Shown: piece by piece, positions 13,678 through 29,976 of the stretch
Position numbering within the stretch: the first letter of the stretch is position 1
Layout of the letters: each line of letters begins with the position of its first letter
DNA from: Saprospiraceae bacterium
GTDB lineage: Bacteria; Bacteroidota; Bacteroidia; Chitinophagales; Saprospiraceae
Length of the DNA stretch: 64,000 nt
Reading direction: 5' to 3'
Assembly: GCA_047634015.1 (NCBI GenBank)
Contig: JBLIDB010000001.1
Coordinates: 16,094-80,093, forward strand
Made by a program: the position numbers and the translations under genes
Notes under the pieces: generated by a model
What the model saw: the letters and a program-made list of their open reading frames with translations, nothing else
The model's database searches: none
Told to the model about the DNA's origin: nothing

Positions 13678-15087
13678 CTATAGAATTTCATAAATTGCAT
13701 AGCTACCAAAAGTCAAAATATTTTCGCCAAATACTTCCGATACTTTAGATTTGGTTCCATCATTTTGTTTTATTTCAATTACTCGATCTGTGGCAAGTAA
13801 TTGGACGCTTGGGTTTTTATAAATGGTATTTAGCAGTAATTGATACTTTTTCGTTAGAGATTTTTCAGGAGTCTTATCCAATGTATGGGTATAGAGATCA
13901 ATTAAGATATATTTGAAATTTGAAGCCTTAAGAGCCGCAATAATCTTCTCTTTTTCTTTCAAGGCATCTACAAGCCAAAAGAATTGGGGAAGTGTATTGT
14001 CTTGAAAAAGGCGCTCAGTGTTATTCTTTATATCAAAGGCAAAGAAGGTACCTATTTGATATATTAAAGCATTATTAGAATTTATCTTTTCAAGTGCATC
14101 ATTGATATTGCCATAAGACTTGCTTCGTGCTTCTTTAGCACTTATAAGAGATGTGGAATATTGGAAAGTATTATTATCCAAAATACCCTTACCTATGTTA
14201 GCAGTATTCTCTCCTGTTTGCATAGTATTGATATTGGAAATTCGTCCTACCCAACACATAGTTATCCATATTAATAAAAACAAAATAATTATGTTCTTAA
14301 TGGAACCAAAAGAAGGGTAGGCGTTGAATTTATCGTTACTACAAAAGTGTAGAATGCTAGTGAGACCTAAAGGGATTATTAAAAATCCGTACCAGATAAT
14401 TCCTGAACTAAGTGCCAACCATAGAAATGAAAATGGGATAAATACAGCAGCAACAAACTGACCCTTTTCTGAAAGCTTGATTCTATGAACGAGTAGCCAT
14501 AAACTACCTATGAATAGAAGGATTAGTATGGGATAAGTAAAATGATCTCGATTTCCAGAAATTTGGTTCCCGATTACATGTATAGGACGCGAAGCGTAAT
14601 ATGATATATTAAAAATTCCTGTGGTGATACTCTCAATTACACTCTTATCGGAATTAGCAATAAAGCTTTGCCACTTTGTGCCATGATTATTAACTTGACC
14701 ATGGAACTGTGTATATTGGAATGAATAACTAAGACAAAGACTTAAGAAGAGAAAAAACACAACGAGCGATGTGTAAAATAGCTTTCGATGCTTATAAACA
14801 AGACCAAGAAACACTAATGGCAATAGCATGAACAAGGCAAAGCCCAAATCTACATAACGTCCTTGTTGATTTGTATTAGAACTAATATCATAAGGCAGCG
14901 TAAGATATCTGAATAGTAAATCTTCATATCCGAAATAGCGTTGAATTTCATCTCTCTTATCATCACTTATGATCTTGTCCAATTCGATGACAAGCGGATC
15001 TTGCTTAGAATCTTCTTGACTATTAAGCGGGGAGATAGAACTAAATAGAACAACAATTAGTAGAATTAACCTTAACTCTAATCTCAT
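13678..15087 (-). CDS. Polytopic membrane protein with a C-terminal extracytoplasmic domain, function unknown
   Basis: Signal peptide, about 8 TM helices, then about 190 soluble residues. An ATGA overlap with the upstream gene suggests translational coupling, and there is a 0-nt gap to the GT2 gene. Confidence 0.55.
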   Translation of the reverse strand: MRLELRLILLIVVLFSSISPLNSQEDSKQDPLVIELDKIISDDKRDEIQRYFGYEDLLFRYLTLPYDISSNTNQQGRYVDLGFALFMLLPLVFLGLVYKHRKLFYTSLVVFFLFLSLCLSYSFQYTQFHGQVNNHGTKWQSFIANSDKSVIESITTGIFNISYYASRPIHVIGNQISGNRDHFTYPILILLFIGSLWLLVHRIKLSEKGQFVAAVFIPFSFLWLALSSGIIWYGFLIIPLGLTSILHFCSNDKFNAYPSFGSIKNIIILFLLIWITMCWVGRISNINTMQTGENTANIGKGILDNNTFQYSTSLISAKEARSKSYGNINDALEKINSNNALIYQIGTFFAFDIKNNTERLFQDNTLPQFFWLVDALKEKEKIIAALKASNFKYILIDLYTHTLDKTPEKSLTKKYQLLLNTIYKNPSVQLLATDRVIEIKQNDGTKSKVSEVFGENILTFGSYAIYEIL

Positions 15088-16727
15088 TGCTCATTCTTCT
15101 TTTGAGATTCTCTATAATTTGAGATTATAGTAGAAGCGTTGATCTTGGGAGAAGGCTTTTCACCTATCACAAGCTTCATAATAGAAAGGCTTTTTGTATA
15201 GGTATAATTTTTATACATCCAAGGAGAGAATGTAAGGGCCATAACCGCACCGCATAATATAAGTGGCTTAATACTAGCAATAAATTTCTCTTTGGATTGT
15301 ACAAAAATATATAAAAGGCCAGAAAGACCTAATGCAATACAAATACCGCCTGTAACATTGGGGCTTAAATGATATTCTCTTAATCCACTTAGATCGTCTA
15401 AGCGGGCTAAAAGGACAAGACCAAAACCTAAAGATGCTACCGAAAGCATTCCGATAATATCTTTATGGAAATTCCAGAGAGCAAGAAAAAGTGCATAAAC
15501 AAGAAATACACTTAGTACTTTAATTGAAAGTCCATACCCTAACAGAATTCCTATAATCACCACCAACTTAGTATCAAATGGCGTTTCTAATAAAGTGCTT
15601 TGAGAATTATTCTTTTTGTATTCAAATAACCACCACATGACCAAATTTAATGTAACCATTTGGAAAAATAATAGCGCGAGGTCTACTTTGAATTCTATCA
15701 TCCAATGATTTGTAACAGTAGGAGACACCATGAATAACATCACTACTAAGAGAGACATATTGGAAGAAACCTTTAGATGATGATGAGCAAACTCATATAT
15801 TGCGAAGAGACAAAGTATGCCTCCTAAGCTGGAGATAAACATTGTAACTTCTGGACTATCAAAAGCTATATATCCTGTAGACATTACAAGACTCCATGCA
15901 TATGGCGAAAAGCCACTTATCAATGCCCCCGCGTCTGAGATAAGATTGGCAATATTTACATAGTAGTTCCGAGCATCAAACCCCAAAGGAAATGGTGCTT
16001 GCGTGTAGAGATAATTCATCGTCAGATAAACGAGGATAAAAAATGCCAAAAATCCTCCCCAAAAATTGAAACCTTTAGGTTTGGTAATCGGTGACCATAG
16101 AACTCTTTTTACAAAACCAAGAGCTTCTTCATAGTTCAATAGAATGAAAAGTGCCATGATGCCGAGTAAGAGTACCTGGTTCAGTAGCGCAAAAGCTCCC
16201 AAAGCCATCATTATGAATGTATATGCTATAAAGCCAATAGCAATATCCAACAAGGCAAAAGTGAGGCTGGTTTCAGGTGATTCTATTAGTCTCTTTCTCA
16301 AAAACCTTCCAATGCTATAACAAGCCGTAATCAAGAAGAAAGCACTTCCAAGGGTAAAAAGAGCCATGCCCGCTAAATGGAGAAAGTGAGAAAAATCAAG
16401 CGGAGCCTTCCAATAATGATTAAAAGAAAGTGTTATCGCCCATATAATCCCAATCACAAGAAGCAGGACCATTATTCCGTTAACAATGTTAAATTTTAAT
16501 CGATTTAAGAAAAACAATCGATTGTAATACAAAGAGAGGAGGGATCCAATAACTGTAAAAAAGCCAAATAGCTTGAAATATCTGAAATAGCGAAACGAAG
16601 GGCCATATACAACTTGCTTGTTAATGTAATCGATGAATATAATACCCACCCAAAACAAAGCGAATATTAAAAATATCCAATCTTGTAGAGTAAACTTAGA
16701 AATGTATCCGCGTAGACGATCAATCAT
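15084..16727 (-). CDS. Large polytopic membrane protein, possible GT-C-fold glycosyltransferase
   Basis: About 13 predicted TM helices, with an early loop motif PFPLGFDARNYY (an acidic/aromatic loop as in GT-C enzymes). The track's TTG start at 16745 overlaps the -7 box, so I prefer the ATG at 16727. Confidence 0.5.
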   Translation of the reverse strand: MIDRLRGYISKFTLQDWIFLIFALFWVGIIFIDYINKQVVYGPSFRYFRYFKLFGFFTVIGSLLSLYYNRLFFLNRLKFNIVNGIMVLLLVIGIIWAITLSFNHYWKAPLDFSHFLHLAGMALFTLGSAFFLITACYSIGRFLRKRLIESPETSLTFALLDIAIGFIAYTFIMMALGAFALLNQVLLLGIMALFILLNYEEALGFVKRVLWSPITKPKGFNFWGGFLAFFILVYLTMNYLYTQAPFPLGFDARNYYVNIANLISDAGALISGFSPYAWSLVMSTGYIAFDSPEVTMFISSLGGILCLFAIYEFAHHHLKVSSNMSLLVVMLFMVSPTVTNHWMIEFKVDLALLFFQMVTLNLVMWWLFEYKKNNSQSTLLETPFDTKLVVIIGILLGYGLSIKVLSVFLVYALFLALWNFHKDIIGMLSVASLGFGLVLLARLDDLSGLREYHLSPNVTGGICIALGLSGLLYIFVQSKEKFIASIKPLILCGAVMALTFSPWMYKNYTYTKSLSIMKLVIGEKPSPKINASTIISNYRESQKKNEQ

Positions 16728-16742
16728 AATAAAATAGTAGAC

Positions 16743-16750
16743 CAAAGGTA
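16743..16750 (-). promoter_or_regulatory. Bacteroidota -7 promoter box (TACCTTTG on the minus strand) for the membrane-protein/GT2 operon
   Basis: Matches TAnnTTTG. It lies 15 nt upstream of the ATG at 16727. Confidence 0.5.
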
Positions 16751-16791
16751 TAACTTTTATCTGCTTTTAAGGATTGCTATTAACCTTGAAA

Positions 16792-16809
16792 TTAATCTTA
16801 AGAGATTAA
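16792..16809. promoter_or_regulatory. Inverted repeat TTAATCT-N4-AGATTAA in the divergent MarR / membrane-operon intergenic region
   Basis: 7-bp perfect arms. It lies between divergently transcribed units, which is the usual place for a MarR operator. Confidence 0.3.
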
Positions 16810-16871
16810 AGTTCAATGGATTAAATATTGTTTAATTTGTCAACTATTATCAAGATAATTGAATTGCTTTT

Positions 16872-17321
16872 GTGGGATTAGAGAAAGAGATAAAACAGAA
16901 AACACCATTCTCAAATGAAGGCAATAGAGCTTTGGTAAATATTCTATATTCTTCAGGTTGGCTAACGGAGAGGTTGAAATCTCACTTTAAGCCCTATGGA
17001 ATTACTCCGAAGCAATATAATATTCTTCGAATCTTAAATGGTGCTATGGATCCAATGTCCACTTCTCAGATCAGAGCGCGTATGCTTGATAAAATGTCAG
17101 ATGTTACGCGATTAATTGATAGGATGGTTTTAAAGCAATGGATCACAAAAAACGCAAGTAATGTAGATAGAAGGTTGATAGATGTTCGGATAACCTTAAA
17201 AGGGGAAAAGCTTTTAAAGGATATCGATCAGGTTAATCCACCGCTTGACAATATCATATCAAATCTTAATGAGATTGAATGCGCTCAACTTAACATTCTA
17301 TTAGATAAGTTGAGAGGTTGA
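16872..17321 (+). CDS. MarR-family transcriptional regulator
   Basis: 149 aa with a winged-helix core ITPKQYNILRIL...MSTSQIRARMLDKMSDVTRLIDRMVLKQWI...DRR. GTG start. Confidence 0.85.
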   Translation: MGLEKEIKQKTPFSNEGNRALVNILYSSGWLTERLKSHFKPYGITPKQYNILRILNGAMDPMSTSQIRARMLDKMSDVTRLIDRMVLKQWITKNASNVDRRLIDVRITLKGEKLLKDIDQVNPPLDNIISNLNEIECAQLNILLDKLRG

Positions 17322-18596
17322 TTAGACTTGACGCTTCAGAGATCTATGCCGATTTTGTGAAGTCTTCCAGAGAAAAATCATATTTAACATCAATGACGCG
17401 CAAAGGTATAGGCCAATAAAAGGGGTAACTAAGTGAGATGTGCTGCTCAATCCAAACCAATCTCCATAGCTAACAATTATATAGGTTCCTAATCCAAATT
17501 TTACGAATTCTGCGATTAGTGAAACAAAATCATTATCCATTAAGCTCGAATAGGCGAATATTGAGATGAAGAGGAATAAAACATATAGTATGATACTATA
17601 TGTGGTTAGTTCACCTATATGCGTTAGTAAGTGATATGTCATAAGATTAGTGATGATCAACTGTGCCCAAGACCAGGCTTCTAATCCAGAAGGTATATCG
17701 GGGTTATATTTTTGTTGAGAAAACGGGTCTTCGATAATGGTGATAGGATATTTTCTCTTAACATCTTCTGGTCGCCAACCAGTAGGCATGAACCATATGC
17801 GAGCCTTGTCCCAGAGGTCCTCAGCTCTCCAAGCGTCCTTAATAAGCTGCCATAGATGTTGGTAGTTGATCAATATCGGATTCCAAGTATGCACTGGTTT
17901 CTTTACTCCATAAACAGGCGGAATTTCGGGAGATTCTTCTTGGAAAGTGCCAAAGAGTTTATCCCAAATAATAAAAATCGCAGCGTAATTTTTATCAATG
18001 TACTCTGGATTTATGGCATGGTGGACTCTATGATGTGATGGGGTAACTAAGATGTATTCCAAAAACCCCATTCGATTTATAAGCCTCGTGTGATACCAGA
18101 ACTGGGCAAACAAGTGAAGTGGCGCTATAATCGCAATCACCTTTCCAGGGATTCCTACTATAGCCATAGGAATATATAAGAAGAAGTATACACCTACCAC
18201 GGCAGAAATACTTTGACGCAGTGCGCAGGCAAGATTGAATTCTTCACTGGAATGATGAACAATATGACGATTCCACATAAGGTTGATCTCATGATTGAAT
18301 CTATGTGACCAATACGAAGCGAAATCAATAAGGACTAATGCTACTATAAATACTAAAAATGTAGAAGGAATTTTAAATAAAGCCAAATGAGACTCCATCC
18401 ATCCATAACTAATAATTACTATACCAAGTCCAACGACTTCCTTCAGGGTATTGGTAAGTCCGGAACTCAGGCTGGATATAGTATCCATAGATGTCACAAT
18501 CTTTTGAGACATATAAAGACTCATTAGATACTCGATAATTATTAGAATTACAAAACCTGGTATGGCGTATGACAATACAGTTGCATATGCTTCCAT
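17322..18596 (-). CDS. Fatty acid hydroxylase / sterol desaturase superfamily membrane protein with a long hydrophobic C-terminal extension
   Basis: His boxes HRFNH, HIVHH and HHRVHH. It is 424 aa, and about 190 residues with further TM helices follow the catalytic domain. Confidence 0.8.
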   Translation of the reverse strand: MEAYATVLSYAIPGFVILIIIEYLMSLYMSQKIVTSMDTISSLSSGLTNTLKEVVGLGIVIISYGWMESHLALFKIPSTFLVFIVALVLIDFASYWSHRFNHEINLMWNRHIVHHSSEEFNLACALRQSISAVVGVYFFLYIPMAIVGIPGKVIAIIAPLHLFAQFWYHTRLINRMGFLEYILVTPSHHRVHHAINPEYIDKNYAAIFIIWDKLFGTFQEESPEIPPVYGVKKPVHTWNPILINYQHLWQLIKDAWRAEDLWDKARIWFMPTGWRPEDVKRKYPITIIEDPFSQQKYNPDIPSGLEAWSWAQLIITNLMTYHLLTHIGELTTYSIILYVLFLFISIFAYSSLMDNDFVSLIAEFVKFGLGTYIIVSYGDWFGLSSTSHLVTPFIGLYLCASLMLNMIFLWKTSQNRHRSLKRQV

Positions 18597-18702
18597 GAGT
18601 ATTTATTTTTTGACTAAGTTACTATTTCCTACGAATGATGGTGCTGTCTTTGAGAATCGATTGAATTGACGCGTATTAAGTAGGCCTCATTATCAATATT
18701 TC

Positions 18703-18710
18703 TATCTTTG
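18703..18710 (+). promoter_or_regulatory. Bacteroidota -7 promoter box (TATCTTTG) for the PIP-synthase-like gene
   Basis: Matches TAnnTTTG. Only 8 nt separate it from the ATG at 18719, which implies a leaderless or near-leaderless mRNA. Confidence 0.5.
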
Positions 18711-18718
18711 CAATAATT

Positions 18719-19399
18719 ATGGATTATAAGGAAGTCGGTCGGAGGGTTTTATATTTTTTGTTTGATCCACTGGTTCATATTATCAAAAAACTGGGCATAA
18801 CTCCCAATCACATTACCCTTGTGGGTTTGATCTTGAATATTTGGGCAGTATTACATCTTATTAACTATACGGATTGGGCCTTGGTGGCATACGGTGAAAA
18901 TTTAGTTGGATTTGGATTCATACTCGGGTTTGCGGGTTTAATGGATACCATAGACGGGAGATTGGCAAGATTGTATGATATGAAATCAACTTTTGGTGCA
19001 TTTTTCGACTCTGTAATCGATCGATATAGTGAATTCATTATGTTTTTAGGGATACTACTCTACTTTATTCATTTTAATCATATGACAGGATTAGTTTTCG
19101 GGTTTATGGCATTGATGGGTTCGATAATGGTTAGTTATAATCGATCTAGAGCGGAAGCATTAGGTGTTGATTGTAGTGTTGGGTTTATGCAGCGGCCAGA
19201 ACGAATTGTATTCATAGGGCTTTGGACAATAATTTGGGGTGTCCTGTATATGACAGTACCGAGTACTTTTGACTATGAAATCTACGGTGTTGATATCTTT
19301 GCCATTGGTTTTATTTTTCTGGCGATCTCTACTAACATTACAGCCATGCGTCGGATGTTACATTCTCAAAAATTATTGCTTGAACAATCGGGTAATTAA
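18719..19399 (+). CDS. CDP-alcohol phosphatidyltransferase, phosphatidylinositol-phosphate synthase-like
   Basis: Signature DTIDGRLARLYDMKSTFGAFFDSVIDR (DGxxAR...G...D...D). It is 226 aa with about 6 TM helices and is linked to the MIPS and PgpA genes. Confidence 0.75.
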   Translation: MDYKEVGRRVLYFLFDPLVHIIKKLGITPNHITLVGLILNIWAVLHLINYTDWALVAYGENLVGFGFILGFAGLMDTIDGRLARLYDMKSTFGAFFDSVIDRYSEFIMFLGILLYFIHFNHMTGLVFGFMALMGSIMVSYNRSRAEALGVDCSVGFMQRPERIVFIGLWTIIWGVLYMTVPSTFDYEIYGVDIFAIGFIFLAISTNITAMRRMLHSQKLLLEQSGN

Positions 19400-19443
19400 A
19401 TCTATTTCTATCAAACCATTGAAAAACATCGATAGTCATCGCG

Positions 19444-20358
19444 ATGGGTCATTTTAAACATAGATTGGTTGTTGCTGGCATTTTTGCCATAGCTTATGGG
19501 GTTCTGATGGGGCTTTTTGTTGGGTGGAGATCTGATCATACCTTTATGTTCGGCCTTGTGCTTGTTATGATGTTAGCACATAAGGAGTCCTATAAGATTG
19601 TATTGGCCTTATCTGGATTTGCCCTTTTCTGGATTATATACGATGCTTTAAGAATTGCGCCTAATTATAGATTTAATGATGTTCATATTAAGGAACCATA
19701 TGAGATAGAGTTGGCTCTTTTTGGTATCATAGACGCTGGAAAATTAGTAGTCCCATGTGAATGGTTTCTAACTCGAATAAATGATACTGCTTCACTTATT
19801 GCTGGATTCTCATACATTCTCTGGATGCCAGCTCCAATGGCATATGCCTTATATCTGTATTGGAAAGATTGGTCTATCTTATTTGATTTTTCCTATGGTT
19901 TTTTACTGACATGCTTTATCGGTTTTTTCTTTTATTACGCATATCCAGCGGCGCCTCCTTGGTATTTTTTAAATCATGGAGTAGGTACAGATTTTAGTAT
20001 TCCCGGCAGCGAAGGCCTTCTTTCAGAATTTGACAGAATTCTTGGAGTGACCATATTTAATGGTATTTATGCGAAAGGAGGCAATGTATTCTGCGCCATT
20101 CCTTCATTACATTCCGCTTATCCGATGCTTTGCCTATTGACTGCTTTACGACGAAAGACATACACGCTGGCTTTTGTCTTCTTAATATGGGGTTTTGGTA
20201 CATGGTTCGCCGCGGTATATTCTCAACATCATTATATTATAGATGTGTTAATGGGTATATTTTGTGCCATTTTGGGGCACTTTCTCATTGTTAAAATCCA
20301 GAAATTCTCATGGATATCTTCCTTTAAGAAAATATTCTTGAAGGAGCTGTATCTATGA
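19444..20358 (+). CDS. PAP2-superfamily membrane protein, inositol-phosphorylceramide synthase-like
   Basis: C-terminal motifs PSLHSAYP and SQHHYIIDVLMG match the AUR1/IPC-synthase-type PAP2 signature. It is a 304-aa polytopic protein. Confidence 0.65.
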   Translation: MGHFKHRLVVAGIFAIAYGVLMGLFVGWRSDHTFMFGLVLVMMLAHKESYKIVLALSGFALFWIIYDALRIAPNYRFNDVHIKEPYEIELALFGIIDAGKLVVPCEWFLTRINDTASLIAGFSYILWMPAPMAYALYLYWKDWSILFDFSYGFLLTCFIGFFFYYAYPAAPPWYFLNHGVGTDFSIPGSEGLLSEFDRILGVTIFNGIYAKGGNVFCAIPSLHSAYPMLCLLTALRRKTYTLAFVFLIWGFGTWFAAVYSQHHYIIDVLMGIFCAILGHFLIVKIQKFSWISSFKKIFLKELYL

Positions 20359-20489
20359 TATAGTATTACATATTATAATTTCTACCATAGATGCCGCGCA
20401 ATTGGTTTACTCGAAAACGTGAATTTTATTGATCAACATGGCAGGTTCGAGTGTTTTTAACTCTTTCTTTTCTGTTAGATTCAAAATCC

Positions 20490-20497
20490 TACCTTTG
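20490..20497 (+). promoter_or_regulatory. Bacteroidota -7 promoter box (TACCTTTG) for the MIPS operon
   Basis: Matches TAnnTTTG. There are 38 nt between the box and the ATG at 20536. Confidence 0.5.
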
Positions 20498-20535
20498 CGG
20501 TCCTTTTACGAAAAAATAAATAAAACCTCTATTCT

Positions 20536-21804
20536 ATGAGTAATAATTCAAAAGCAACTAAACCGACGGGTACCCTCGGTATTCTTACCCCTGGAATGGG
20601 TGCAGTTGCCACTACATTCATTGCAGGGTGTATAGCTATTAAGAAAGGTATGGCTAAGCCAATCGGTTCACTTACACAAATGGGCCATATTACCGCCGCG
20701 GATGGTAGTCGACGTCGCATAGATGAGATTGTACCACTCCAAGCATTGGGCGATGTAATCTTTGGAGGATGGGATGTACATCCGGATAGCGTATATGATG
20801 CAGCGGTTAATGCAAAAGTTATAGACCGCTATATGATCGAGCAGTTAAAACCTGAACTGGAAGCCATTAAGCCAATGACTGCTTGCTTTGATCAGCGATA
20901 TGTCAAACGACTCCATGGAACGAATGTGAAGACTCAGACCAATAAGATGGAATTGGCAGAAGCGCTGATGGATGATATTAGAAGATTTAAAGAGGAGAAC
21001 AATTGTGATCGATTGGTGATGGTTTGGTGCGGAAGTACAGAAATGTATATTGAAGAATCTGATGTGCATACTACTCTTGCTAAATTAGAAGAAGGACTTA
21101 GAAATAATGACGAGAATATCCCTCCGAGCATGATATATGTTTATGCTGCGGTCAAGATGGGTATTCCATATGCTAATGGAGCGCCTAACTTAAGTTGTGA
21201 TGTGCCAGCTATCTTAGAATTGGCCGCTCAGACACAGACTCCTATAGCAGGGAAAGATTTCAAAACAGGGCAGACGTTTATGAAGACGATCCTCGCTCCT
21301 GGTCTTAAGTCAAGACATCTGGGTATAGAAGGCTGGTTCAGTACTAATATATTGGGTAATAGAGATGGAGAGGTATTGGATGCGCCTGAGAACTTCAAAA
21401 CTAAAGAGGTTTCTAAACTGGGAGTTCTTGAGCAAATATTAGAGCCCGATTTATATCCCGAACTTTATGGTGATATGTATCACAAAGTTCGAATCAATTA
21501 TTATCCACCGAGAGGGGATGCGAAAGAGGGTTGGGATAATATCGATATAAGAGGATGGATGGATTATCCGATGCAAATAAAAGTAGATTTTTTATGTAGA
21601 GATAGCATACTTGCCGCACCATTAGTATTGGATCTTGCGATCTTGTTAGATCTTGCCAAAAGATCTGGTGAGAGCGGTATCCAGCATTGGTTAAGCTACT
21701 ATCTAAAGTCCCCGCAGACCTTACCTGGAGCTAAACCTCAGCACGATTTATTCAAGCAGCATGATGATTTGAATAAAAAACTGTTTGAATTAGCGGGAGA
21801 ATAA
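20536..21804 (+). CDS. ino1: myo-Inositol-1-phosphate (inositol-3-phosphate) synthase
   Basis: 422 aa with N-terminal nucleotide-binding stretch LGILTPGMGAVATTFIAG. Core motifs PYANGAPN, FKTGQT and WFSTNILGNRDG resemble the short archaeal/bacterial MIPS type. Confidence 0.85.
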   Translation: MSNNSKATKPTGTLGILTPGMGAVATTFIAGCIAIKKGMAKPIGSLTQMGHITAADGSRRRIDEIVPLQALGDVIFGGWDVHPDSVYDAAVNAKVIDRYMIEQLKPELEAIKPMTACFDQRYVKRLHGTNVKTQTNKMELAEALMDDIRRFKEENNCDRLVMVWCGSTEMYIEESDVHTTLAKLEEGLRNNDENIPPSMIYVYAAVKMGIPYANGAPNLSCDVPAILELAAQTQTPIAGKDFKTGQTFMKTILAPGLKSRHLGIEGWFSTNILGNRDGEVLDAPENFKTKEVSKLGVLEQILEPDLYPELYGDMYHKVRINYYPPRGDAKEGWDNIDIRGWMDYPMQIKVDFLCRDSILAAPLVLDLAILLDLAKRSGESGIQHWLSYYLKSPQTLPGAKPQHDLFKQHDDLNKKLFELAGE

Positions 21805-21813
21805 AATAATTCG

Positions 21814-22281
21814 ATGAAGTGGTTAGCAACTTTCATTTCATCCGCAGGTGGAGCAGGATATGTGCCTTTTGCACCCGGTACGTGGGGTACACTTGTAGGC
21901 TGTATTATCCTCTATGTTTTATCCTACTTCTTCGTTGGGTTCAATTCAGGATGGCAATTGGTGGGCCTTACAATAGTTCTTAGTGTTTTCAGTCATCAGC
22001 TAATAGCTTTTTTGCCTGATACATGGGTTCATGACGATGGTAGAATTGTAATAGACGAAGTTTTAGGACTTTGGGTAACCTTGTTCTTCCTACCAGTTAC
22101 TCCTACCACTTTGGTGCTTGGATTTATCTTTTTTCGCATTTTTGATATTTGGAAACCGCTTGGGATAAGATATTTCGATCAGCTGAAATCAAACTGGGGA
22201 GTAATTGTCGATGATATAGTGGCAGGTGTCTATGCGAATATTGCGTTAAGAGGAGTAATACTAATTTTGTTATGGATATGA
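21814..22281 (+). CDS. pgpA: Phosphatidylglycerophosphatase A family protein (candidate PIP phosphatase)
   Basis: 155 aa with GGAGYVPFAPGTWGT, DDGRIVIDEVLG and RIFDIWKP motifs typical of PgpA. Confidence 0.8.
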   Translation: MKWLATFISSAGGAGYVPFAPGTWGTLVGCIILYVLSYFFVGFNSGWQLVGLTIVLSVFSHQLIAFLPDTWVHDDGRIVIDEVLGLWVTLFFLPVTPTTLVLGFIFFRIFDIWKPLGIRYFDQLKSNWGVIVDDIVAGVYANIALRGVILILLWI

Positions 22282-22694
22282 CACTGAAGCAAGGCACTCA
22301 GAATGTACCTATTGTAAAATCATTTTTTAGGTATAATGCCTCTGCGATGACAGCAAGCGCATTTGATTTTGGTATTACGCTATTTTGCAAGGAGGTATTA
22401 GGAGTTCACTATTTGGTGTCCGTATTTTTAGGTGCGCTGAGCGGAGGGGTTGTCGCATTTACACTTGGGCGAAACTGGACTTATCTTAGCAAAGACGAAA
22501 AACCGCAAACTCAAGGGGCTAAATATTTGATTATTTGGGTAGGTAGCATATTGTTAAATACATTTGGGGTTTATTTCATAGCAGAAGTCCTTGGCTTTGG
22601 TGAGGAGTATTATATTTATTGGAAAGTAATAACAGCCACTTTGGTTGGAGCCTTTTACAATTTTCCTATGCAGCGATACTTTGTTTTTAAATGA
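22272..22694 (+). CDS. GtrA-family membrane protein (polyprenol-phosphate-sugar translocation family)
   Basis: 140 aa with 4 TM helices. The N-terminal FxxFxxxSxxxxxxDF-like segment and the C-terminus QRYFVFK are typical of GtrA. It overlaps pgpA by 10 nt. Confidence 0.7.
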   Translation: MDMTLKQGTQNVPIVKSFFRYNASAMTASAFDFGITLFCKEVLGVHYLVSVFLGALSGGVVAFTLGRNWTYLSKDEKPQTQGAKYLIIWVGSILLNTFGVYFIAEVLGFGEEYYIYWKVITATLVGAFYNFPMQRYFVFK

Positions 22695-23575
22695 TGTCGG
22701 ATAAAAAAAAGCTTCTGTTTATTATAAACCCCTTTGCTGGATATCGAAGCAAGAATAGGATGCCTAAGCTTATCAATGAGGTCATCTCCAAAGAGATGTT
22801 TGACTATGATATTGAAGAAACTCAATACGCAGGGCATGCTTCTGAGATAGCTGCAGAAGGAGTAACATCCCAGTACAATGCTGTTGTAGCTATTGGTGGT
22901 GATGGGACACTCAATGAAGTGGCTTCATCTCTTATATATACGGATGTTGCATTAGGGATAGTACCAGGAGGTTCTGGTAATGGGATGTCTACACATTTGG
23001 GTATCGGTCGAAGTGCTCGTAAGGCGCTGAGAATTCTTGGAGATTACAATGTCCGCAGAATGGATTCTGTTAAATTGAATGATAGATTCTATCTTAATAT
23101 GGCAGGAATTGGAATAGATGGCCTTGTAGCATATAAGACAAAACTCAATGCAAAAAGAGGTTTTTCGAATTATCTGAAAGGCGCCCTCGTAGAAAGTATC
23201 AAATACAAGAATCAGAAATACACTATTGAGGTAGATGGCAAGGAATATACAGGGAAGTTCCTTTCAGTCAATGTAGCCAATGGATCTATGTTCGGCTATA
23301 ATTTCACTATAGCTGCCGATGCTGACACTTCGGATGGATTATTGGATACACTCATGATCCGTGATGCCCACAAGATTGATTATTTCGGTAATGCTTGGAG
23401 ATTTTGGGCTGGAAGAATTCATAAAAGCAAGTTGGCAAAAACAGCGAAAACATCCTCTTTGAAACTCACTACTTATGAGGATAGTTATATGCATATTGAT
23501 GGCGAAGGTTATCCTTGTCCTCCTGGAGAGTTTGAATTTACGGTTATGAAGGATTCCCTTAATGTGATCTGCTAA
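22691..23575 (+). CDS. DAGK-catalytic-domain lipid kinase (YegS/BmrU/sphingosine-kinase fold)
   Basis: LFIINPFAG, GGDGTLNE and PGGSGNG motifs. 294 aa. It has an ATGA overlap with the GtrA gene. Confidence 0.8.
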   Translation: MMSDKKKLLFIINPFAGYRSKNRMPKLINEVISKEMFDYDIEETQYAGHASEIAAEGVTSQYNAVVAIGGDGTLNEVASSLIYTDVALGIVPGGSGNGMSTHLGIGRSARKALRILGDYNVRRMDSVKLNDRFYLNMAGIGIDGLVAYKTKLNAKRGFSNYLKGALVESIKYKNQKYTIEVDGKEYTGKFLSVNVANGSMFGYNFTIAADADTSDGLLDTLMIRDAHKIDYFGNAWRFWAGRIHKSKLAKTAKTSSLKLTTYEDSYMHIDGEGYPCPPGEFEFTVMKDSLNVIC

Positions 23576-23638
23576 TTTATCTTTGGCTTGTTAACAACTC
23601 ATTTAGAGTAAATTTCACATAATACATCTACAGCTTTC

Positions 23639-23646
23639 TACCTTTG
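23639..23646 (+). promoter_or_regulatory. Bacteroidota -7 promoter box (TACCTTTG) for the DUF5916 gene
   Basis: Matches TAnnTTTG. There are 7 nt between the box and the ATG at 23654. Confidence 0.5.
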
Positions 23647-23653
23647 TGGGCTT

Positions 23654-25870
23654 ATGAGAATTATATTATTCTTTTTTACAATGTGTTCGGTCATTTGGAC
23701 TTATGCACAGGCTGGATTAGAGCTTTCCGAAGTTCAGGTTAAGTCTATCGAATCGGGTCGTGTTACAGTTGATGGAGAGCTGAATGAAGCTTTCTGGATG
23801 GAAATTACTCCGGCCACGGACTTTCAGCAATATTTTCCTACAGATTCTATAAAGGCCCAAGCAAGGACAGAGATTTATCTGGCGTCAGATGATGAGCATC
23901 TATACGTAGGATTAAAGTGTGTTTCTGCAGGCAATAAATGGATCGTTCCTTCTCTTAAACGGGATTACAGGGCAGGAGGTAATGACAATGTAACTTTAGT
24001 TTTTGATTCATTTGATGATCAGACTAATGCAATATTCTTTGGCATCAATCCTGAGGGCGTTATCAGGGAGGGGCTTATTAGCAATGGTGGAAATAGGAGA
24101 GAGGATTTTTCTGAATCATGGGATAATAAATGGGCTGGAACTTCCAAGAAATACGATGGGTATTATACTGCCGAGTTAGCAATTCCATTTAGTACGCTGA
24201 GATATAATGCCGATAATGATAGATGGGGATTAATGTCCTACAGATTCGATACGCAAATCAATGAGTGGAGTACTTGGCCGGGAACACCTCAGAATCAAGT
24301 TTTATTCAACTTAGCCCATATGGGTGAGATAAACTGGGAGGTCGCTCCACCTAAAGGAAAAAAACAAGTAAGTATTATACCTTTTATTTCCGCAGGAGTA
24401 AGCAGGGATTTCGAAGAAGGTACACCTTCAGATAAGTTCATAGAAGTTGGGGGAGATGCTAAAATTGCGCTGACTTCAGGGTTGAATCTAGATCTAACAA
24501 TAAATCCAGATTTCTCTCAAGTGGAAGTAGATCAGCAGATAACTAATCTGGATAGATTCGAATTATTCTTTCCAGAAAGACGCCAGTTCTTTTTAGAAAA
24601 TGCTGATTTGTTTGGTCAGTTTGGATTTCAAAGTATCAATCCATTTTTCTCACGAAGGATCGGCGTTGCGAATGATGTAGAAACAGATAATACGGTTCAA
24701 AATCGAATCTATGGTGGCCTTAGGCTAAGTGGGAAGGTCAATAAAAAGCTGAGAGTGGGGTTGCTGAACATGCATACAGAGTCCAACCATGAGCAAGGGA
24801 TTCCCTCTACAAATTATGCAGTTCTTGCCCTCCAACAAAAAGTTCTTAGTAGATCTAACATCAGCTTTATCGCTGTCAATAAAAACGCTGCCTTAGATAA
24901 TCTTGAGGGTAGTGATTTAAGCAAATTCAATCGAGTTTTTGGTGTAGACTTTAATTATGCTAACAATGATAACACATGGTCAGGTAAGACTTTCGCACAT
25001 ACAGCTCTTACTCAAAATCAAGGTGCAAAATTGAGTCATGGTACAAACTTAAATTATAATAAAAGAGAATTTGGACTTTCTTGGGAGCATGCATATGTGC
25101 AGGATGGTTATAACGCAGAAGTGGGCTTTATAAGAAGGACAAATTATATCAGGATCGCGCCTTCTGGAGAGTTAAGATTCTATCCGGCAGGAAAGAAGCT
25201 GAATACGTTCAACCTTGGTACGGAGACTGAAATGATTTGGAAGACAGGATTTGGGAAGACCGATCATGAGATAAGAATAGGAAGTGAAATTGGATTAACA
25301 AATAGCACACGTCTGGGCGTTTTTTTTAACCATAATTATGTCTACCTGTTTGATGATTTTGATCCAACGGGTACAGACTCAGCTCCCCTAATGGCAGATA
25401 GTGAATACAATTACTGGAATATCGCCGGATTCTGGAGTTCGGATTCCAGAAAGAAGTTGTCCTTTCAATTACGACCATATATAGGTCAGTACTTTAATGG
25501 GAATAGATATGGAACCCGTGGTTCTATATCATTGCGTTATGAGCCAAGAGGATCAATAAGGTTGGATTATTCTGTGAACTATTTTGATATGCCTCATTTA
25601 GATGAGGTGAAAAGTACACTTCTAATAGGTCCAAGAATTGATTACACTTTCTCAAGGTCAGTATTTTCGACTTTGTTTGTTCAGTACAATAGTCAATCTC
25701 AGAATACTAATGTGAATGCACGACTACAATGGCGATTTGCCCCCGTTTCTGACTTTTTCTTAGTCTATACGGACAATTATTTTAGCGGATTAGATCCTTC
25801 GGATCGATTCGCATTAAATGTTAGAAACCGCTCAATCGTAGCAAAGCTTACCTATTGGTTCAATACATAA
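23654..25870 (+). CDS. Secreted CBM9-like / DUF5916 family protein (probable outer-membrane beta-barrel)
   Basis: Signal peptide. The motif NPDFSQVEVDQQITNLDRFELFFPERRQFFLE is one I recognise from DUF5916 proteins. The C-terminus is aromatic (TYWFNT). Confidence 0.65.
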   Translation: MRIILFFFTMCSVIWTYAQAGLELSEVQVKSIESGRVTVDGELNEAFWMEITPATDFQQYFPTDSIKAQARTEIYLASDDEHLYVGLKCVSAGNKWIVPSLKRDYRAGGNDNVTLVFDSFDDQTNAIFFGINPEGVIREGLISNGGNRREDFSESWDNKWAGTSKKYDGYYTAELAIPFSTLRYNADNDRWGLMSYRFDTQINEWSTWPGTPQNQVLFNLAHMGEINWEVAPPKGKKQVSIIPFISAGVSRDFEEGTPSDKFIEVGGDAKIALTSGLNLDLTINPDFSQVEVDQQITNLDRFELFFPERRQFFLENADLFGQFGFQSINPFFSRRIGVANDVETDNTVQNRIYGGLRLSGKVNKKLRVGLLNMHTESNHEQGIPSTNYAVLALQQKVLSRSNISFIAVNKNAALDNLEGSDLSKFNRVFGVDFNYANNDNTWSGKTFAHTALTQNQGAKLSHGTNLNYNKREFGLSWEHAYVQDGYNAEVGFIRRTNYIRIAPSGELRFYPAGKKLNTFNLGTETEMIWKTGFGKTDHEIRIGSEIGLTNSTRLGVFFNHNYVYLFDDFDPTGTDSAPLMADSEYNYWNIAGFWSSDSRKKLSFQLRPYIGQYFNGNRYGTRGSISLRYEPRGSIRLDYSVNYFDMPHLDEVKSTLLIGPRIDYTFSRSVFSTLFVQYNSQSQNTNVNARLQWRFAPVSDFFLVYTDNYFSGLDPSDRFALNVRNRSIVAKLTYWFNT

Positions 25871-26011
25871 ATCAAAAGCTTCATGCGTTTGTCTATAATT
25901 GCCACGCATTTGTATACAATTCAGAACATTGATTTTGAATTTGATCAACATTACGGGGTGTTTCGGGTTTATACCTTCTATTCACTTTATAATACAAATC
26001 AACTACATCTT

Positions 26012-28459: not shown

Positions 28460-28611
28460 TTCCGCCCTTTCTTGCTAAGGACTATTGTTTTGATTTTTCT
28501 TGTACTTGTGGATTTGCGTAGCTTCGGTGTCGATTATACACGCCTTGTGCATTAGCTTGTCTTAATGGATATATTGTTGTTCAATGCGGGTTAAATATAT
28601 AATGAAGTGCT

Positions 28612-29904: not shown

Positions 29905-29976
29905 CAATTCATTTTTCGCCCACGTCTTAAAAGTATAGAATTCAAAAAAGCAATATCTTGTAGTCAAAGCAATATT

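What the first reader, a model, noticed from the sequence alone, without database searches (positions are those of the whole stretch)
18703..23575. Inositol-lipid biosynthesis locus in two tight transcription units
Seen directly: unit 1 is a CDP-alcohol phosphatidyltransferase (DGxxAR..G..D..D signature) followed by a PAP2 protein with the AUR1/IPC-synthase-type PSLH...HHYxxD motifs. Unit 2 is MIPS, PgpA, GtrA and a DAGK-fold kinase joined by a 9-nt gap, a 10-nt overlap and a 4-nt overlap, and each unit has its own TAnnTTTG box. Established knowledge: MIPS, a PIP synthase and a PIP phosphatase make phosphatidylinositol in actinobacteria. An IPC-synthase-like PAP2 then gives inositol phosphorylceramide. 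As far as I recall, a comparable cluster was characterised in Bacteroides thetaiotaomicron (BT_1522-BT_1526). The MIPS here looks like the short archaeal/bacterial type, and the operon carries two extra genes, so this version may make something beyond PI/IPC.
Basis: partly seen in the sequence, partly recalled or inferred. Interest (0 to 1): 0.7.

Follow-up and report, generated by a model that had tools for sequence, protein, structure and literature searches.

The report
Inositol lipid genes with extra kinase
This is a sea-ice Saprospiraceae version of the inositol-lipid gene cluster already characterised in the gut bacterium Bacteroides thetaiotaomicron; its core is ordinary, but it carries one extra, tightly coupled lipid kinase whose role has not been tested.

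Summary

Five genes (PIP synthase, AUR1-like PAP2, MIPS, PgpA, GtrA) correspond one-to-one to BT_1523, 1522, 1526, 1525 and 1524, the published B. thetaiotaomicron PI / phosphoinositol-dihydroceramide cluster.

Two details are wrong:
- GtrA is not an extra gene, because BT_1524 is a GtrA protein.
- The MIPS is the BT_1526 type (57% identical), not a distinguishing "archaeal" type.

The only real addition is a soluble YegS/BmrU/DgkB-family lipid kinase, translationally coupled to GtrA. It recurs after GtrA in 13 other, mostly Saprospiraceae-labelled, loci.

In 44 of 80 related genome loci the PAP2 gene is collinear with SPT, bCerS-like and CerR-like ceramide genes. This supports a ceramide acceptor. 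The window, about 9 kb beyond each of its ends, and its whole 10-member clade lack linked ceramide genes, so the sphingolipid end product is inferred, not shown.

The kinase may recycle the diacylglycerol released by the PAP2 step, or it may phosphorylate a sphingoid base or ceramide. Its substrate is unresolved.

Verdict: a new variant of a known system, of modest interest.

The parts
18703..18710 (+). TATCTTTG, a Bacteroidota -7-type promoter box for unit 1, ending 8 nt before the PIPS start codon. This implies a very short or absent 5' leader.
   Evidence: Seen in the sequence. A TATCTTG block lies 5-10 nt before the PIPS ATG in L001-L006. The transcription start site has not been mapped.
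18719..19399 (+). Phosphatidylinositol-phosphate synthase (CDP-alcohol phosphatidyltransferase), the BT_1523 counterpart. About 6 hydrophobic segments. Catalytic motif at 18944-19021.
   Evidence: PF01066 at 51 bits. Best NCBIfam model is PIPSynBT1523 at 213 bits (below the 350 equivalog cutoff), followed by archaetidylinositol-phosphate synthase and PIPSynth. Best PDB hits are 5D91 and 6H53 PIP synthases. Motif located. Next to a PAP2 gene in 62 of 80 loci.
19444..20358 (+). AUR1-like PAP2_3 phospho-head-group transferase, the BT_1522 counterpart and the predicted phosphoinositol-dihydroceramide (IPC) synthase. PSLH at 20101-20112, HHYIID at 20227-20244.
   Evidence: PF14378 at 66 bits. The only NCBIfam hit is PhinosDhcerSyn at 263.6 bits, full length but below the 480 cutoff. 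The only PDB hits are yeast AUR1 at E 9e-12, with the YPAAPPWY, PSLHS and HHY..D blocks aligned. Homologues are collinear with SPT/bCerS/CerR in 44 of 80 loci. 44 of 53 near-invariant columns are kept in every member of its clade.
20490..20507 (+). TACCTTTG box plus conserved downstream bases (TAnnTTTGnnnnCCnnTT). Internal promoter for unit 2, 38 nt before the MIPS ATG.
   Evidence: It is the only conserved block in the PAP2/MIPS spacer across 7 loci. A box lies at -42 to -60 in every locus that has MIPS. No Rfam match in the spacer.
20536..21804 (+). myo-Inositol-3-phosphate synthase, the BT_1526 counterpart. Soluble.
   Evidence: PF07994 at 310 bits and PF01658 at 111 bits. 7NWR (BT_1526) matches at 526 bits, with 57% identity over 413 residues.
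21814..22281 (+). PgpA-family lipid phosphatase, the BT_1525 counterpart and the predicted PIP phosphatase (PIP to PI).
   Evidence: PF04608 at 131 bits. Follows MIPS in 46 of 80 loci. BT_1525 was shown to be the PIP phosphatase in PMC9246714.
22272..22694 (+). GtrA-family small membrane protein, the BT_1524 counterpart. Overlaps PgpA by 10 nt and the kinase by 4 nt.
   Evidence: PF04138 at 47 bits. Present in 43 of 80 loci. The BT1524 mutant has less IPC and more PI (PMC8791184). An RNA contig covers 22629-22828 across the junction with the kinase.
22691..23575 (+). Soluble YegS/Rv2252/BmrU/DgkB-family lipid kinase, the one gene with no counterpart in BT_1522-26. GGDGT at 22895-22909, DGEG at 23498-23509.
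   Evidence: PF00781 and PF19279. TIGR00147 scores 124.5, above its 118.65 cutoff. Best PDB hit is S. aureus DgkB 2QV7 at E 3e-19, with GGDGT and DGE aligned. No hydrophobic segment. Follows GtrA in L001-6, L020, L026, L036, L081, L083, L085 and L087. Follows CerR in L082.
17322..18596 (-). Divergently transcribed FA_hydroxylase-family membrane protein (424 aa). A possible accessory lipid hydroxylase, whose membership of the system is uncertain.
   Evidence: PF04116 at 102 bits. Same position and orientation in L001-L005 only. It is not the short 211-aa FA_hydroxylase found inside 21 other clusters. No PDB relative.

Best explanation
The locus encodes the Bacteroides-type pathway for inositol phospholipids, split into two promoter-headed units, with one added lipid kinase.

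Proposed steps:
1. MIPS converts glucose-6-phosphate to inositol-3-phosphate in the cytoplasm.
2. The CDP-alcohol transferase condenses inositol-3-phosphate with CDP-diacylglycerol to give phosphatidylinositol phosphate (PIP).
3. The PgpA-type phosphatase removes the phosphate to give phosphatidylinositol (PI).
4. The GtrA-like membrane protein helps PI reach the next enzyme, most simply by moving it to the outer leaflet of the inner membrane.
5. The AUR1-like PAP2 enzyme transfers phosphoinositol from PI to dihydroceramide. This gives phosphoinositol-dihydroceramide and releases diacylglycerol (DAG).
6. The extra soluble kinase, translated in tandem with GtrA, most likely phosphorylates that DAG back to phosphatidic acid. 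DAG would then cycle as a carrier, as DgkB does for lipoteichoic-acid synthesis.

Basis for each step: steps 1, 2, 3 and 5 are assigned by homology to genes tested genetically and biochemically in B. thetaiotaomicron. Step 4 rests on one mutant phenotype there. Step 6, and the availability of ceramide in this organism, are inferences.
For: - One-to-one domain match to BT_1522-26.
- MIPS is 57% identical to the BT_1526 crystal structure.
- PIPS and PAP2 have the BT1523 and phosphoinositol-dihydroceramide-synthase NCBIfam models as full-length best hits. PAP2 hits only AUR1 in the PDB, and its catalytic His/His/Asp are conserved.
- The five genes co-occur across Bacteroidota: PIPS in 62, MIPS in 47, PgpA in 46 and GtrA in 43 of 80 PAP2 loci.
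- PAP2 homologues are collinear with a bona fide SPT (NCBIfam SerpalmtaseCFB, 679 bits against a 640 cutoff), a GNAT-fold bCerS-like gene and a CerR-like reductase in 44 of 80 loci.
- The neighbouring clade in the PAP2 tree includes L085, L026 and L036, which carry ceramide, inositol and kinase genes in one run.
- The GtrA mutant of B. thetaiotaomicron accumulates PI and loses IPC (PMC8791184). CerR is periplasmic in Caulobacter (PMC11087976), which fits a periplasm-facing transfer step.
- Kinase: its best PDB match is DgkB, with GGDGT and DGE kept. It is soluble. It has a conserved 4-nt overlap or short gap with GtrA in 8 loci. It directly follows PAP2 in L038.
- Precedents: DgkB recycles DAG and needs a membrane partner (PMC11962490). 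Family member Rv2252 is a DAG kinase tied to PI/PIM synthesis (PMC3229680).
- Metatranscriptome contigs cross the PIPS/PAP2 and GtrA/kinase junctions.
Against: - PIPS and PAP2 score below NCBIfam's equivalog cutoffs (213 against 350, and 264 against 480), so they are distant members.
- No SPT, bCerS or CerR homologue lies in the 64-kb window or about 9 kb beyond either end. None is linked in any of the 10 loci of the window's PAP2 clade. That clade has two substitutions at otherwise near-invariant positions: F123 to S/A in all 10 members and A191 to G in 9 of 10.
- Against a DAG-kinase role: in L082 a 40%-identical homologue sits in an SPT-bCerS-CerR-kinase operon with no inositol genes. L085 also carries a classical DgkA beside the cluster. 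70 of 80 clusters manage without a linked kinase.
- The RNA evidence is three contigs of about 150-200 nt at depth 4 and could be DNA carry-over.
- No lipid or enzyme data exist for this organism.
Confidence: 0.68

Rival explanations
1. Same pathway, but the kinase acts on a sphingolipid. It would be a dihydrosphingosine or (dihydro)ceramide kinase that diverts or tunes backbone flux between head-group classes, or makes a phosphorylated sphingolipid, as P. gingivalis PG1348 and Caulobacter CpgB do.
For: - L082 has an SPT-bCerS-CerR-kinase operon with no inositol genes within 5 kb upstream or 8 kb downstream.
- L026, L036 and L085 put the kinase in the same run as the ceramide genes.
- PG1348 is a DAGK-fold dihydrosphingosine kinase in the same phylum, and deleting it shifts sphingolipid head-group ratios (PMC9045371).
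- CpgB is a soluble cytoplasmic ceramide kinase of this fold (PMC10331486).
- L085 has a separate DgkA that could handle DAG.
Against: - The closest solved relatives are DgkB, BmrU and YegS. Human SphK1 is not hit at E <= 0.001.
- In 13 of 15 sphingolipid- or inositol-linked contexts in other loci the kinase's immediate partner is GtrA in the inositol half, not a ceramide gene.
- I could not compare the sequence directly with PG1348 or CpgB.
Confidence: 0.3
2. The organism makes PI but no sphingolipid. Its clade lost or never had ceramide synthesis, and the PAP2 enzyme transfers phosphoinositol to another acceptor or acts as a lipid phosphatase.
For: - No ceramide genes lie in the window, beyond its ends, or in any of the 10 loci of its PAP2 clade.
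- Two substitutions run through the clade next to invariant residues.
Against: - In B. thetaiotaomicron the SPT gene (BT_0870) is also unlinked from BT_1522-26. Unlinked ceramide genes are reported as normal in Bacteroidota (PMC11334938).
- The catalytic residues and 44 of 53 near-invariant positions are retained.
- The nearest other PAP2 clades are ceramide-linked.
Confidence: 0.15
3. The kinase is only a neighbour of the cluster. It would be a housekeeping lipid kinase that happens to lie downstream, with no specific link to inositol lipids.
For: Homologues at 38-40% identity occur in unrelated contexts (L084 and L086). 70 of 80 PAP2 loci have no kinase nearby.
Against: - The start and stop codons overlap with GtrA (ATGA) here and in L004, L006 and L081.
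- The adjacency persists down to 37-48% kinase identity and through rearranged gene orders (L026, L036, L085, L087).
- An RNA contig spans the junction.
Confidence: 0.08
4. The locus makes a soluble inositol compound (di-myo-inositol phosphate), or uses the CDP-inositol route proposed for B. vulgatus and Prevotella.
For: A weak partial match of the transferase to the DIPP-synthase domain (NCBIfam 61 bits; PDB 4MND at E 3.5e-6).
Against: - No NTP-transferase (cytidylyltransferase) or HAD hydrolase gene lies in or beside the locus.
- The DIPPS model scores 61 bits against a 580 cutoff, while the PIP-synthase models score 107-213 bits.
- A PgpA lipid phosphatase and an AUR1-like lipid transferase are present.
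Confidence: 0.02

Closest known systems
Bacteroides thetaiotaomicron BT_1522-BT_1526 inositol-lipid cluster (Heaver et al. 2022, PMC9246714; Sartorio et al. 2022, PMC8791184)
   Same: The same five protein families with the same predicted chemistry: MIPS, PIP synthase, PgpA-type PIP phosphatase, GtrA-like protein and AUR1-like phosphoinositol-dihydroceramide synthase. PIPS sits directly next to PAP2, and MIPS-PgpA-GtrA are contiguous. Ceramide genes are unlinked, as in B. thetaiotaomicron. A CarboxypepD_reg-domain outer-membrane protein lies nearby (25883-28459), comparable to BT_1527.
   Different: - Gene order is PIPS-PAP2 | MIPS-PgpA-GtrA-kinase, with a conserved internal promoter box between the two units.
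- A sixth gene, a soluble DAGK_cat lipid kinase, is added.
- The proteins are distant: MIPS is 57% identical, and PIPS and PAP2 score below the NCBIfam equivalog cutoffs.
- The host is a free-living Saprospiraceae-like bacterium from sea-ice and brine metagenomes, not a gut commensal.
Yeast AUR1 inositol phosphorylceramide synthase (PDB 9VJ3, 9IVC)
   Same: It is the only solved relative of the PAP2 protein (E 9e-12). The PAAPPWY, PSLHS and HHY..D blocks align.
   Different: Only about 165 residues align. There is no Kei1-like subunit gene here. Many other Bacteroidota clusters instead carry a DUF4833 gene just upstream of PAP2, but this window does not.
Actinobacterial PI pathway (MIPS, PgsA1/PIP synthase, PIP phosphatase) and Rv2252
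   Same: PI is made through a PIP intermediate by a CDP-alcohol transferase. The PDB PIP synthases 5D91 and 6H53 are the best hits. Rv2252, a member of the same TIGR00147 kinase family, is a DAG kinase tied to PI/PIM synthesis (PMC3229680).
   Different: The MIPS is not the actinobacterial type (TIGR03450 scores 22 bits against a 638 cutoff). There are no mannosyltransferases. A sphingolipid-type PAP2 transferase is present.
S. aureus DgkB (PDB 2QV7) DAG-recycling kinase with its membrane recruiter GdpS (PMC11962490)
   Same: It is the best solved match to the kinase. The GGDGT and DGE motifs are conserved, and both enzymes are soluble. The logic is the same: recycling DAG released by a head-group transfer on the outer face of the membrane. 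The gene here is paired with a small membrane protein.
   Different: The match is only 72 bits, and none of the DAG-kinase equivalog models reaches its cutoff. The partner here is a GtrA protein, not a GGDEF protein. No activity data exist.
P. gingivalis PG1348 dihydrosphingosine kinase and Caulobacter CpgB ceramide kinase
   Same: Both have the DAGK_cat fold, are soluble, are found in sphingolipid-producing bacteria and influence which sphingolipid head-group classes accumulate. A homologue of the window kinase sits in an SPT-bCerS-CerR operon (L082).
   Different: Their sequences could not be retrieved for direct comparison, so orthology is untested.

Membership tests
BT_1522-26-type inositol-lipid (PI / phosphoinositol-dihydroceramide) cluster | BT_1526-type myo-inositol-3-phosphate synthase | tested here: met
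   7NWR matches at 526 bits with 57% identity over 413 residues. Both Pfam MIPS domains are present.
BT_1522-26-type inositol-lipid (PI / phosphoinositol-dihydroceramide) cluster | PIP synthase equivalent to BT_1523, with the CDP-alcohol transferase motif | tested here: inconclusive
   The motif D-x2-DG-x2-AR-x8-G-x3-D-x3-D is present. PIPSynBT1523 is the full-length best hit, but at 213 bits it is below the 350-bit equivalog cutoff. PDB PIP synthases are the best hits.
BT_1522-26-type inositol-lipid (PI / phosphoinositol-dihydroceramide) cluster | AUR1-like PAP2 phosphoinositol-dihydroceramide synthase equivalent to BT_1522 | tested here: inconclusive
   PhinosDhcerSyn is the only NCBIfam hit. 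It covers residues 14-296 of 304 but scores 263.6 against a 480 cutoff. AUR1 is the only PDB hit, and the catalytic H223, H263 and D267 are conserved.
BT_1522-26-type inositol-lipid (PI / phosphoinositol-dihydroceramide) cluster | PgpA-family PIP phosphatase and GtrA-like protein contiguous with MIPS | tested here: met
   PF04608 at 131 bits and PF04138 at 47 bits. A 9-nt gap and a 10-nt overlap. The same trio occurs in 43-46 of 80 loci.
BT_1522-26-type inositol-lipid (PI / phosphoinositol-dihydroceramide) cluster | Ceramide supply (SPT, ceramide synthase, reductase) in the same genome | not testable with these tools
   None lies in the window or about 9 kb beyond either end. The whole genome is not available.
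BT_1522-26-type inositol-lipid (PI / phosphoinositol-dihydroceramide) cluster | PI and inositol phosphoceramide actually produced | not testable with these tools
   Needs lipidomics.
Di-myo-inositol-phosphate (IPCT/DIPPS) solute synthesis | Inositol-phosphate cytidylyltransferase domain or partner gene | tested here: not met
   No NTP-transferase domain occurs in any gene from 12979 to 30993. The IPCT/DIPPS model scores 61 bits against a 580 cutoff and matches only the transferase half.
B. vulgatus/Prevotella-type alternative inositol cluster | NTP transferase plus HAD hydrolase next to the phosphatidyltransferase | tested here: not met
   Neither domain is present in the locus or its flanks.
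YegS/Rv2252/BmrU lipid kinase family (TIGR00147) | Score above the curated subfamily cutoff, GGDGT nucleotide motif, C-terminal YegS_C domain | tested here: met
   124.5 bits against a 118.65 cutoff. PF00781 and PF19279 are present. GGDGT and DGEG are present.
DgkB-type diacylglycerol kinase (functional class) | Equivalog-level similarity to a characterised DAG kinase, or demonstrated DAG phosphorylation | tested here: not met
   All the DAG-kinase and lipid-kinase equivalog models score far below their cutoffs, for example PRK13337 at 92 against 385. DgkB is the best PDB hit, but at only 72 bits. Activity has not been tested.

The most novel reading that the evidence does not exclude
In a Saprospiraceae lineage the GtrA-kinase pair is a functional module, with the small membrane protein presenting a lipid to the soluble kinase or docking the kinase at the membrane. 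Its product would go beyond the Bacteroides pathway: a phosphorylated sphingolipid (ceramide-1-phosphate or dihydrosphingosine-1-phosphate), or a head-group-phosphorylated inositol lipid, since YegS phosphorylates phosphatidylglycerol in vitro. That would give a free-living bacterium a phosphoinositide-like or S1P-like lipid made from a single operon.
Probability: 0.2. Interest if true: 0.6.

Novelty: new variant of a known kind. Interest (0 to 1): 0.36.

Why it matters
The Bacteroides inositol-lipid cluster has been presented as a trait of host-associated Bacteroidetes. This window shows it in a sea-ice bacterium.

The comparison set adds two points. AUR1-like PAP2 genes occur in more than 571 species genomes across environmental Bacteroidota. 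They are often fused with SPT, bCerS and CerR genes into 9-10-gene sphingolipid operons.

The added kinase is not mentioned in either B. thetaiotaomicron study. It gives a testable handle on two open points of that pathway: what GtrA/BT_1524 does, and what happens to the diacylglycerol by-product or how ceramide flux is controlled.

None of this overturns current understanding. It extends a known pathway.

Tried and rejected
1. **GtrA/GtrB/GT-C glycosylation triad.** I considered the upstream minus-strand operon (GT2 at 12979-13677 plus two polytopic proteins without Pfam hits at 13678-16745) as part of such a triad decorating the inositol lipid. Rejected: the operon is not conserved with the cluster, and only L004 shares one of its genes.
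2. **Ceramide genes near the window.** tblastn of SPT, bCerS and CerR against the window, Pfam on 39 window ORFs and a look about 9 kb past each end found nothing.
3. **SPT in the complete chromosome of clade member L020.** I tried to detect it through the longest_contig column of a homologue search. The search saturated at 77% identity or above and gave no answer.
4. **Sigma-70 promoter and intrinsic-terminator scans.** Hit counts were at or below shuffled expectation, so they are uninformative, as expected for Bacteroidota.
5. **Rfam scan of 16700-24000 at E <= 1.** No hits, so there is no known riboswitch in the 177-nt spacer.
6. **PDB sequence search with the FA_hydroxylase neighbour.** Only chance-level hits.
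7. **The window's FA_hydroxylase as the cluster-internal one.** I tested whether it is the same as the short FA_hydroxylase found inside other clusters. There was no tblastn hit at E <= 1e-3, so it belongs to a different subfamily.
8. **Direct comparison of the kinase with PG1348 or CpgB.** Not possible, because their sequences could not be obtained with the tools.
9. **Di-myo-inositol-phosphate and CDP-inositol routes.** Rejected for lack of a cytidylyltransferase and a HAD hydrolase.

Full report
**Observation.**
Each carries the stated Pfam domain above its gathering cutoff:
- CDP-OH_P_transf at 18719-19399
- PAP2_3 at 19444-20358
- both MIPS domains at 20536-21804
- PgpA at 21814-22281
- GtrA at 22272-22694
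- DAGK_cat + YegS_C at 22691-23575

The quoted motifs are present: D-x2-DG-x2-AR-x8-G-x3-D-x3-D at 18944-19021, PSLH at 20101-20112 and HHYIID at 20227-20244. The spacings are 44, 177, 9, -10 and -4 nt. TATCTTTG lies at 18703-18710 and TACCTTTG at 20490-20497.

**Are the promoter boxes more than chance?**
As a bare 8-mer, TAnnTTTG is not enriched in the window (59 found, 65 expected). Its placement is not random, however. Fifteen of the 59 copies fall in the 12% of the window that is non-coding (p = 0.003), and 10 of those 15 face a gene start within 100 nt.

Comparative data are stronger. In seven related loci the PAP2/MIPS spacer has diverged (54% mean column identity), yet the block TAnnTTTGnnnnCCnnTT is kept. 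It lies 42-60 nt before the MIPS ATG in every locus that has MIPS. Upstream of PIPS, all six relatives keep a TATCTTG block 5-10 nt before the ATG, which implies a very short or absent leader.

Sigma-70 and terminator scans were at background, and Rfam found nothing. An ice metatranscriptome yields small contigs that cross the PIPS/PAP2 junction (19393-19543) and the GtrA/kinase junction (22629-22828). This fits co-transcription within each unit, but the evidence is thin and DNA carry-over cannot be excluded.

**What it is.**
The source is a Bacteroidota chromosome. The window also carries DnaA, RuvB, NadA, a T9SS component and TonB-type receptors. It was recovered from ice and brine metagenomes. 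The closest genomes are uncultured Saprospiraceae/Saprospirales, with 51-60% PAP2 identity.

The five core genes correspond one-to-one to the B. thetaiotaomicron cluster, which two 2022 studies dissected genetically and biochemically:

| B. thetaiotaomicron gene | Function |
|---|---|
| BT_1526 | MIPS |
| BT_1525 | PgpA-type PIP phosphatase |
| BT_1524 | GtrA-like protein |
| BT_1523 | PIP synthase |
| BT_1522 | phosphoinositol-dihydroceramide synthase |

- **MIPS:** 57% identical to the BT_1526 crystal structure 7NWR (526 bits).
- **Transferase:** the best NCBIfam model is PIPSynBT1523, and the best solved relatives are actinobacterial PIP synthases.
- **PAP2 protein:** its only NCBIfam hit is the phosphoinositol-dihydroceramide synthase model. 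Its only PDB hits are yeast AUR1, with the catalytic blocks aligned.

Both membrane-enzyme matches are full length but below the equivalog cutoffs (213 against 350, and 264 against 480). These are therefore distant members, not close orthologues.

GtrA is not an extra gene, because BT_1524 is a GtrA-motif protein. GtrA also follows PgpA in 43 of 80 related loci.

The MIPS is not a distinguishing "short archaeal" type. It is the BT_1526 type, and it scores higher against eukaryotic enzymes (194 and 179 bits) than against the Archaeoglobus enzyme (157 bits) or the actinobacterial model (22 bits).

The di-myo-inositol-phosphate alternative and the CDP-inositol route both fail. No cytidylyltransferase or HAD gene is present.

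**Context across Bacteroidota.**
A genome scan with a PAP2 alignment found more than 571 species genomes with a relative, and I analysed the best 80 loci. PIPS, MIPS, PgpA and GtrA lie beside PAP2 in 62, 47, 46 and 43 loci respectively.

PAP2 is collinear with three ceramide-type genes in 44 of the 80 loci: 34 together with inositol genes and 10 without them. The three genes are:
- a serine palmitoyltransferase that passes NCBIfam's curated CFB-group equivalog cutoff (679 bits against 640);
- a GNAT-fold protein of about 375 aa, bCerS-like;
- an epimerase-fold reductase, CerR-like.

This is strong guilt-by-association evidence that this PAP2 family uses ceramide as its acceptor. Many clusters also carry DUF4833 (47 loci) and a short FA_hydroxylase (21 loci) just upstream of PAP2. 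The window has neither.

**The caveat on the end product.**
The window has no SPT, bCerS or CerR homologue, and neither do the roughly 9 kb beyond each of its ends. In an NJ tree the window's PAP2 falls in a monophyletic group of 10 loci. All 10 have inositol genes plus the kinase, and none has linked ceramide genes. The neighbouring clade contains L085, L026 and L036, which carry all three modules in one run.

Lack of linkage is not absence. SPT (BT_0870) is unlinked in B. thetaiotaomicron as well, and unlinked ceramide genes are reported as usual for Bacteroidota. The enzyme also shows no decay: 44 of 53 near-invariant positions are kept in all 10 members. Only two substitutions run through the clade, F123 to S/A in all 10 members and A191 to G in 9 of 10.

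Even so, inositol phosphoceramide as the end product in this organism is an inference. My attempt to find SPT in a complete chromosome of the clade failed because the homologue search saturated.

**The kinase.**
This is the only real novelty. It is a soluble protein of the YegS/Rv2252/BmrU family (TIGR00147, above cutoff). Its closest solved relative is S. aureus DgkB, and GGDGT and DGE are conserved.

Where the kinase and its homologues sit:
- It is present in only 10 of the 80 genome loci, all labelled Saprospiraceae or close to it.
- It follows GtrA here and in 13 other loci: L001-6, L020, L026, L036, L081, L083, L085 and L087. The junction is a 4-nt overlap or a short gap, and the adjacency holds down to 37-48% identity and through rearranged gene orders.
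- In L038 it directly follows PAP2.
- In L082 a 40%-identical homologue is the fourth gene of an SPT-bCerS-CerR-kinase operon with no inositol genes nearby.
- Two other homologues, at 38-40% identity, sit in unrelated contexts.
- Neither B. thetaiotaomicron paper mentions a kinase in the cluster.

**Most likely mechanism.**
Steps 1-3 and 5 follow the B. thetaiotaomicron pathway by homology:
1. Glucose-6-phosphate to inositol-3-phosphate (MIPS).
2. Inositol-3-phosphate plus CDP-DAG to PIP (PIPS).
3. PIP to PI (PgpA-type phosphatase).
4. GtrA acts between PI and IPC.
5. PI plus dihydroceramide to phosphoinositol-dihydroceramide plus DAG (PAP2).

For step 4, the BT1524 mutant accumulates PI and loses IPC. 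PAP2 active sites generally face away from the cytoplasm (established knowledge of the family), and the ceramide reductase is periplasmic in Caulobacter. The simplest inferred role for GtrA is therefore to deliver PI to the outer leaflet.

For the kinase I favour DAG salvage. The head-group transfer releases one DAG per IPC, and a soluble DgkB-type kinase returns it to phosphatidic acid and so to CDP-DAG. This parallels DgkB in lipoteichoic-acid synthesis, where the soluble kinase also needs a membrane protein to dock it. Family member Rv2252 is a DAG kinase tied to PI/PIM synthesis.

The main rival is a dihydrosphingosine or ceramide kinase, like P. gingivalis PG1348 or Caulobacter CpgB. The L082 context and the separate DgkA in L085 favour that reading.

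I rate DAG salvage at about 0.4, a sphingolipid kinase at about 0.3, and other roles (PI or PG head-group kinase, or no functional link) as the remainder. No computation available here separates them.

**Novelty and verdict.**
The core is an already characterised kind of system, found here in a new lineage and habitat. The split two-promoter layout and the GtrA-coupled kinase make it a variant.

The kinase and the wider distribution in environmental Bacteroidota, including the fused ceramide-inositol operons, are of moderate interest to specialists.

**Limits of the analysis.**
- Presence and absence calls rest on tblastn thresholds, and some loci are cut by contig ends.
- Some MAG labels are doubtful.
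- The tree is a single NJ tree without support values.
- There is no lipid or enzyme evidence for this organism.

Noticed in passing
window 17322-18596 (-): A 424-aa FA_hydroxylase-family membrane protein is transcribed divergently from the PIPS gene, with a 122-nt shared spacer. It holds the same position in L001-L005. It is a different subfamily from the 211-aa FA_hydroxylase found inside 21 other clusters, and its C-terminal 200 residues match no family. It could be a lipid hydroxylase acting on these lipids.
   Followed up: partly
L-loci, e.g. L049:1-10900, L057:600-10900, L036:8700-17000, L085:639-11959: Many environmental Bacteroidota (Chitinophagaceae, Cytophagales, Flavobacteriales and Bacteroidales MAGs, and some Saprospiraceae) carry single-strand 9-14-gene runs that combine SPT, bCerS-like, CerR-like, MIPS, PgpA, GtrA, PIPS, DUF4833, sometimes FA_hydroxylase, and PAP2. 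This contrasts with the statement in the literature that ceramide genes are not co-located in Bacteroidota.
   Followed up: partly
47 loci, e.g. L085:1337-1861; absent from the window: A soluble DUF4833 protein of about 170 aa is encoded immediately upstream of the AUR1-like PAP2 gene in 47 of 87 loci. It is an uncharacterised, tightly linked partner, possibly an accessory subunit in the way Kei1 is for yeast Aur1. Loci in which PIPS abuts PAP2 directly, including the window, lack it.
   Followed up: partly
window 22704-22711: An A8 homopolymer lies at codons 5-7 of the kinase (MMSDKKKL). The one metatranscriptome contig covering it has one extra A, which would shift the reading frame. At depth 4 this may be a strain variant or an assembly or sequencing slip.
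   Followed up: no
window 25883-28459 (+), also 23654-25870 (+): A CarboxypepD_reg + Plug + beta-barrel outer-membrane protein and a DUF5916 protein follow the kinase here and in L001-L006. CarboxypepD_reg-domain proteins also flank the cluster in B. thetaiotaomicron (BT_1527), L085 and L087, so the association recurs. It has no known meaning.
   Followed up: partly
window 1217-2353 (+): A 378-aa GT2 protein that also passes the Pfam cutoff for Glyco_transf_21, the ceramide glucosyltransferase family (27 bits against 21.7). It lies 17 kb from the cluster and could be a lipid glycosyltransferase.
   Followed up: no
window 12979-16745 (-): An operon of a 232-aa GT2 protein and two large polytopic membrane proteins (469 and 553 aa) that match no Pfam family. 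It is not conserved next to the inositol cluster in other genomes.
   Followed up: partly
L006, L020, L083: Three members of the window's clade have PIPS, PAP2, PgpA, GtrA and the kinase but no MIPS within the locus. L026 and L036 have MIPS but no PgpA. The clusters therefore tolerate loss or relocation of single steps.
   Followed up: no
L026, L071: Contigs carrying typical Bacteroidota-type clusters are labelled Halioglobus sp. (Gammaproteobacteria) and Williamsia sp. (Actinomycetota). These are probably mis-binned MAG contigs.
   Followed up: no
window 17946-17976: In metagenome run X1, a 31-nt contig at depth about 1400 (against 12 for the rest of the window) matches inside the FA_hydroxylase gene with 3 mismatches. 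It is probably a conserved His-box word shared with a much more abundant organism.
   Followed up: no
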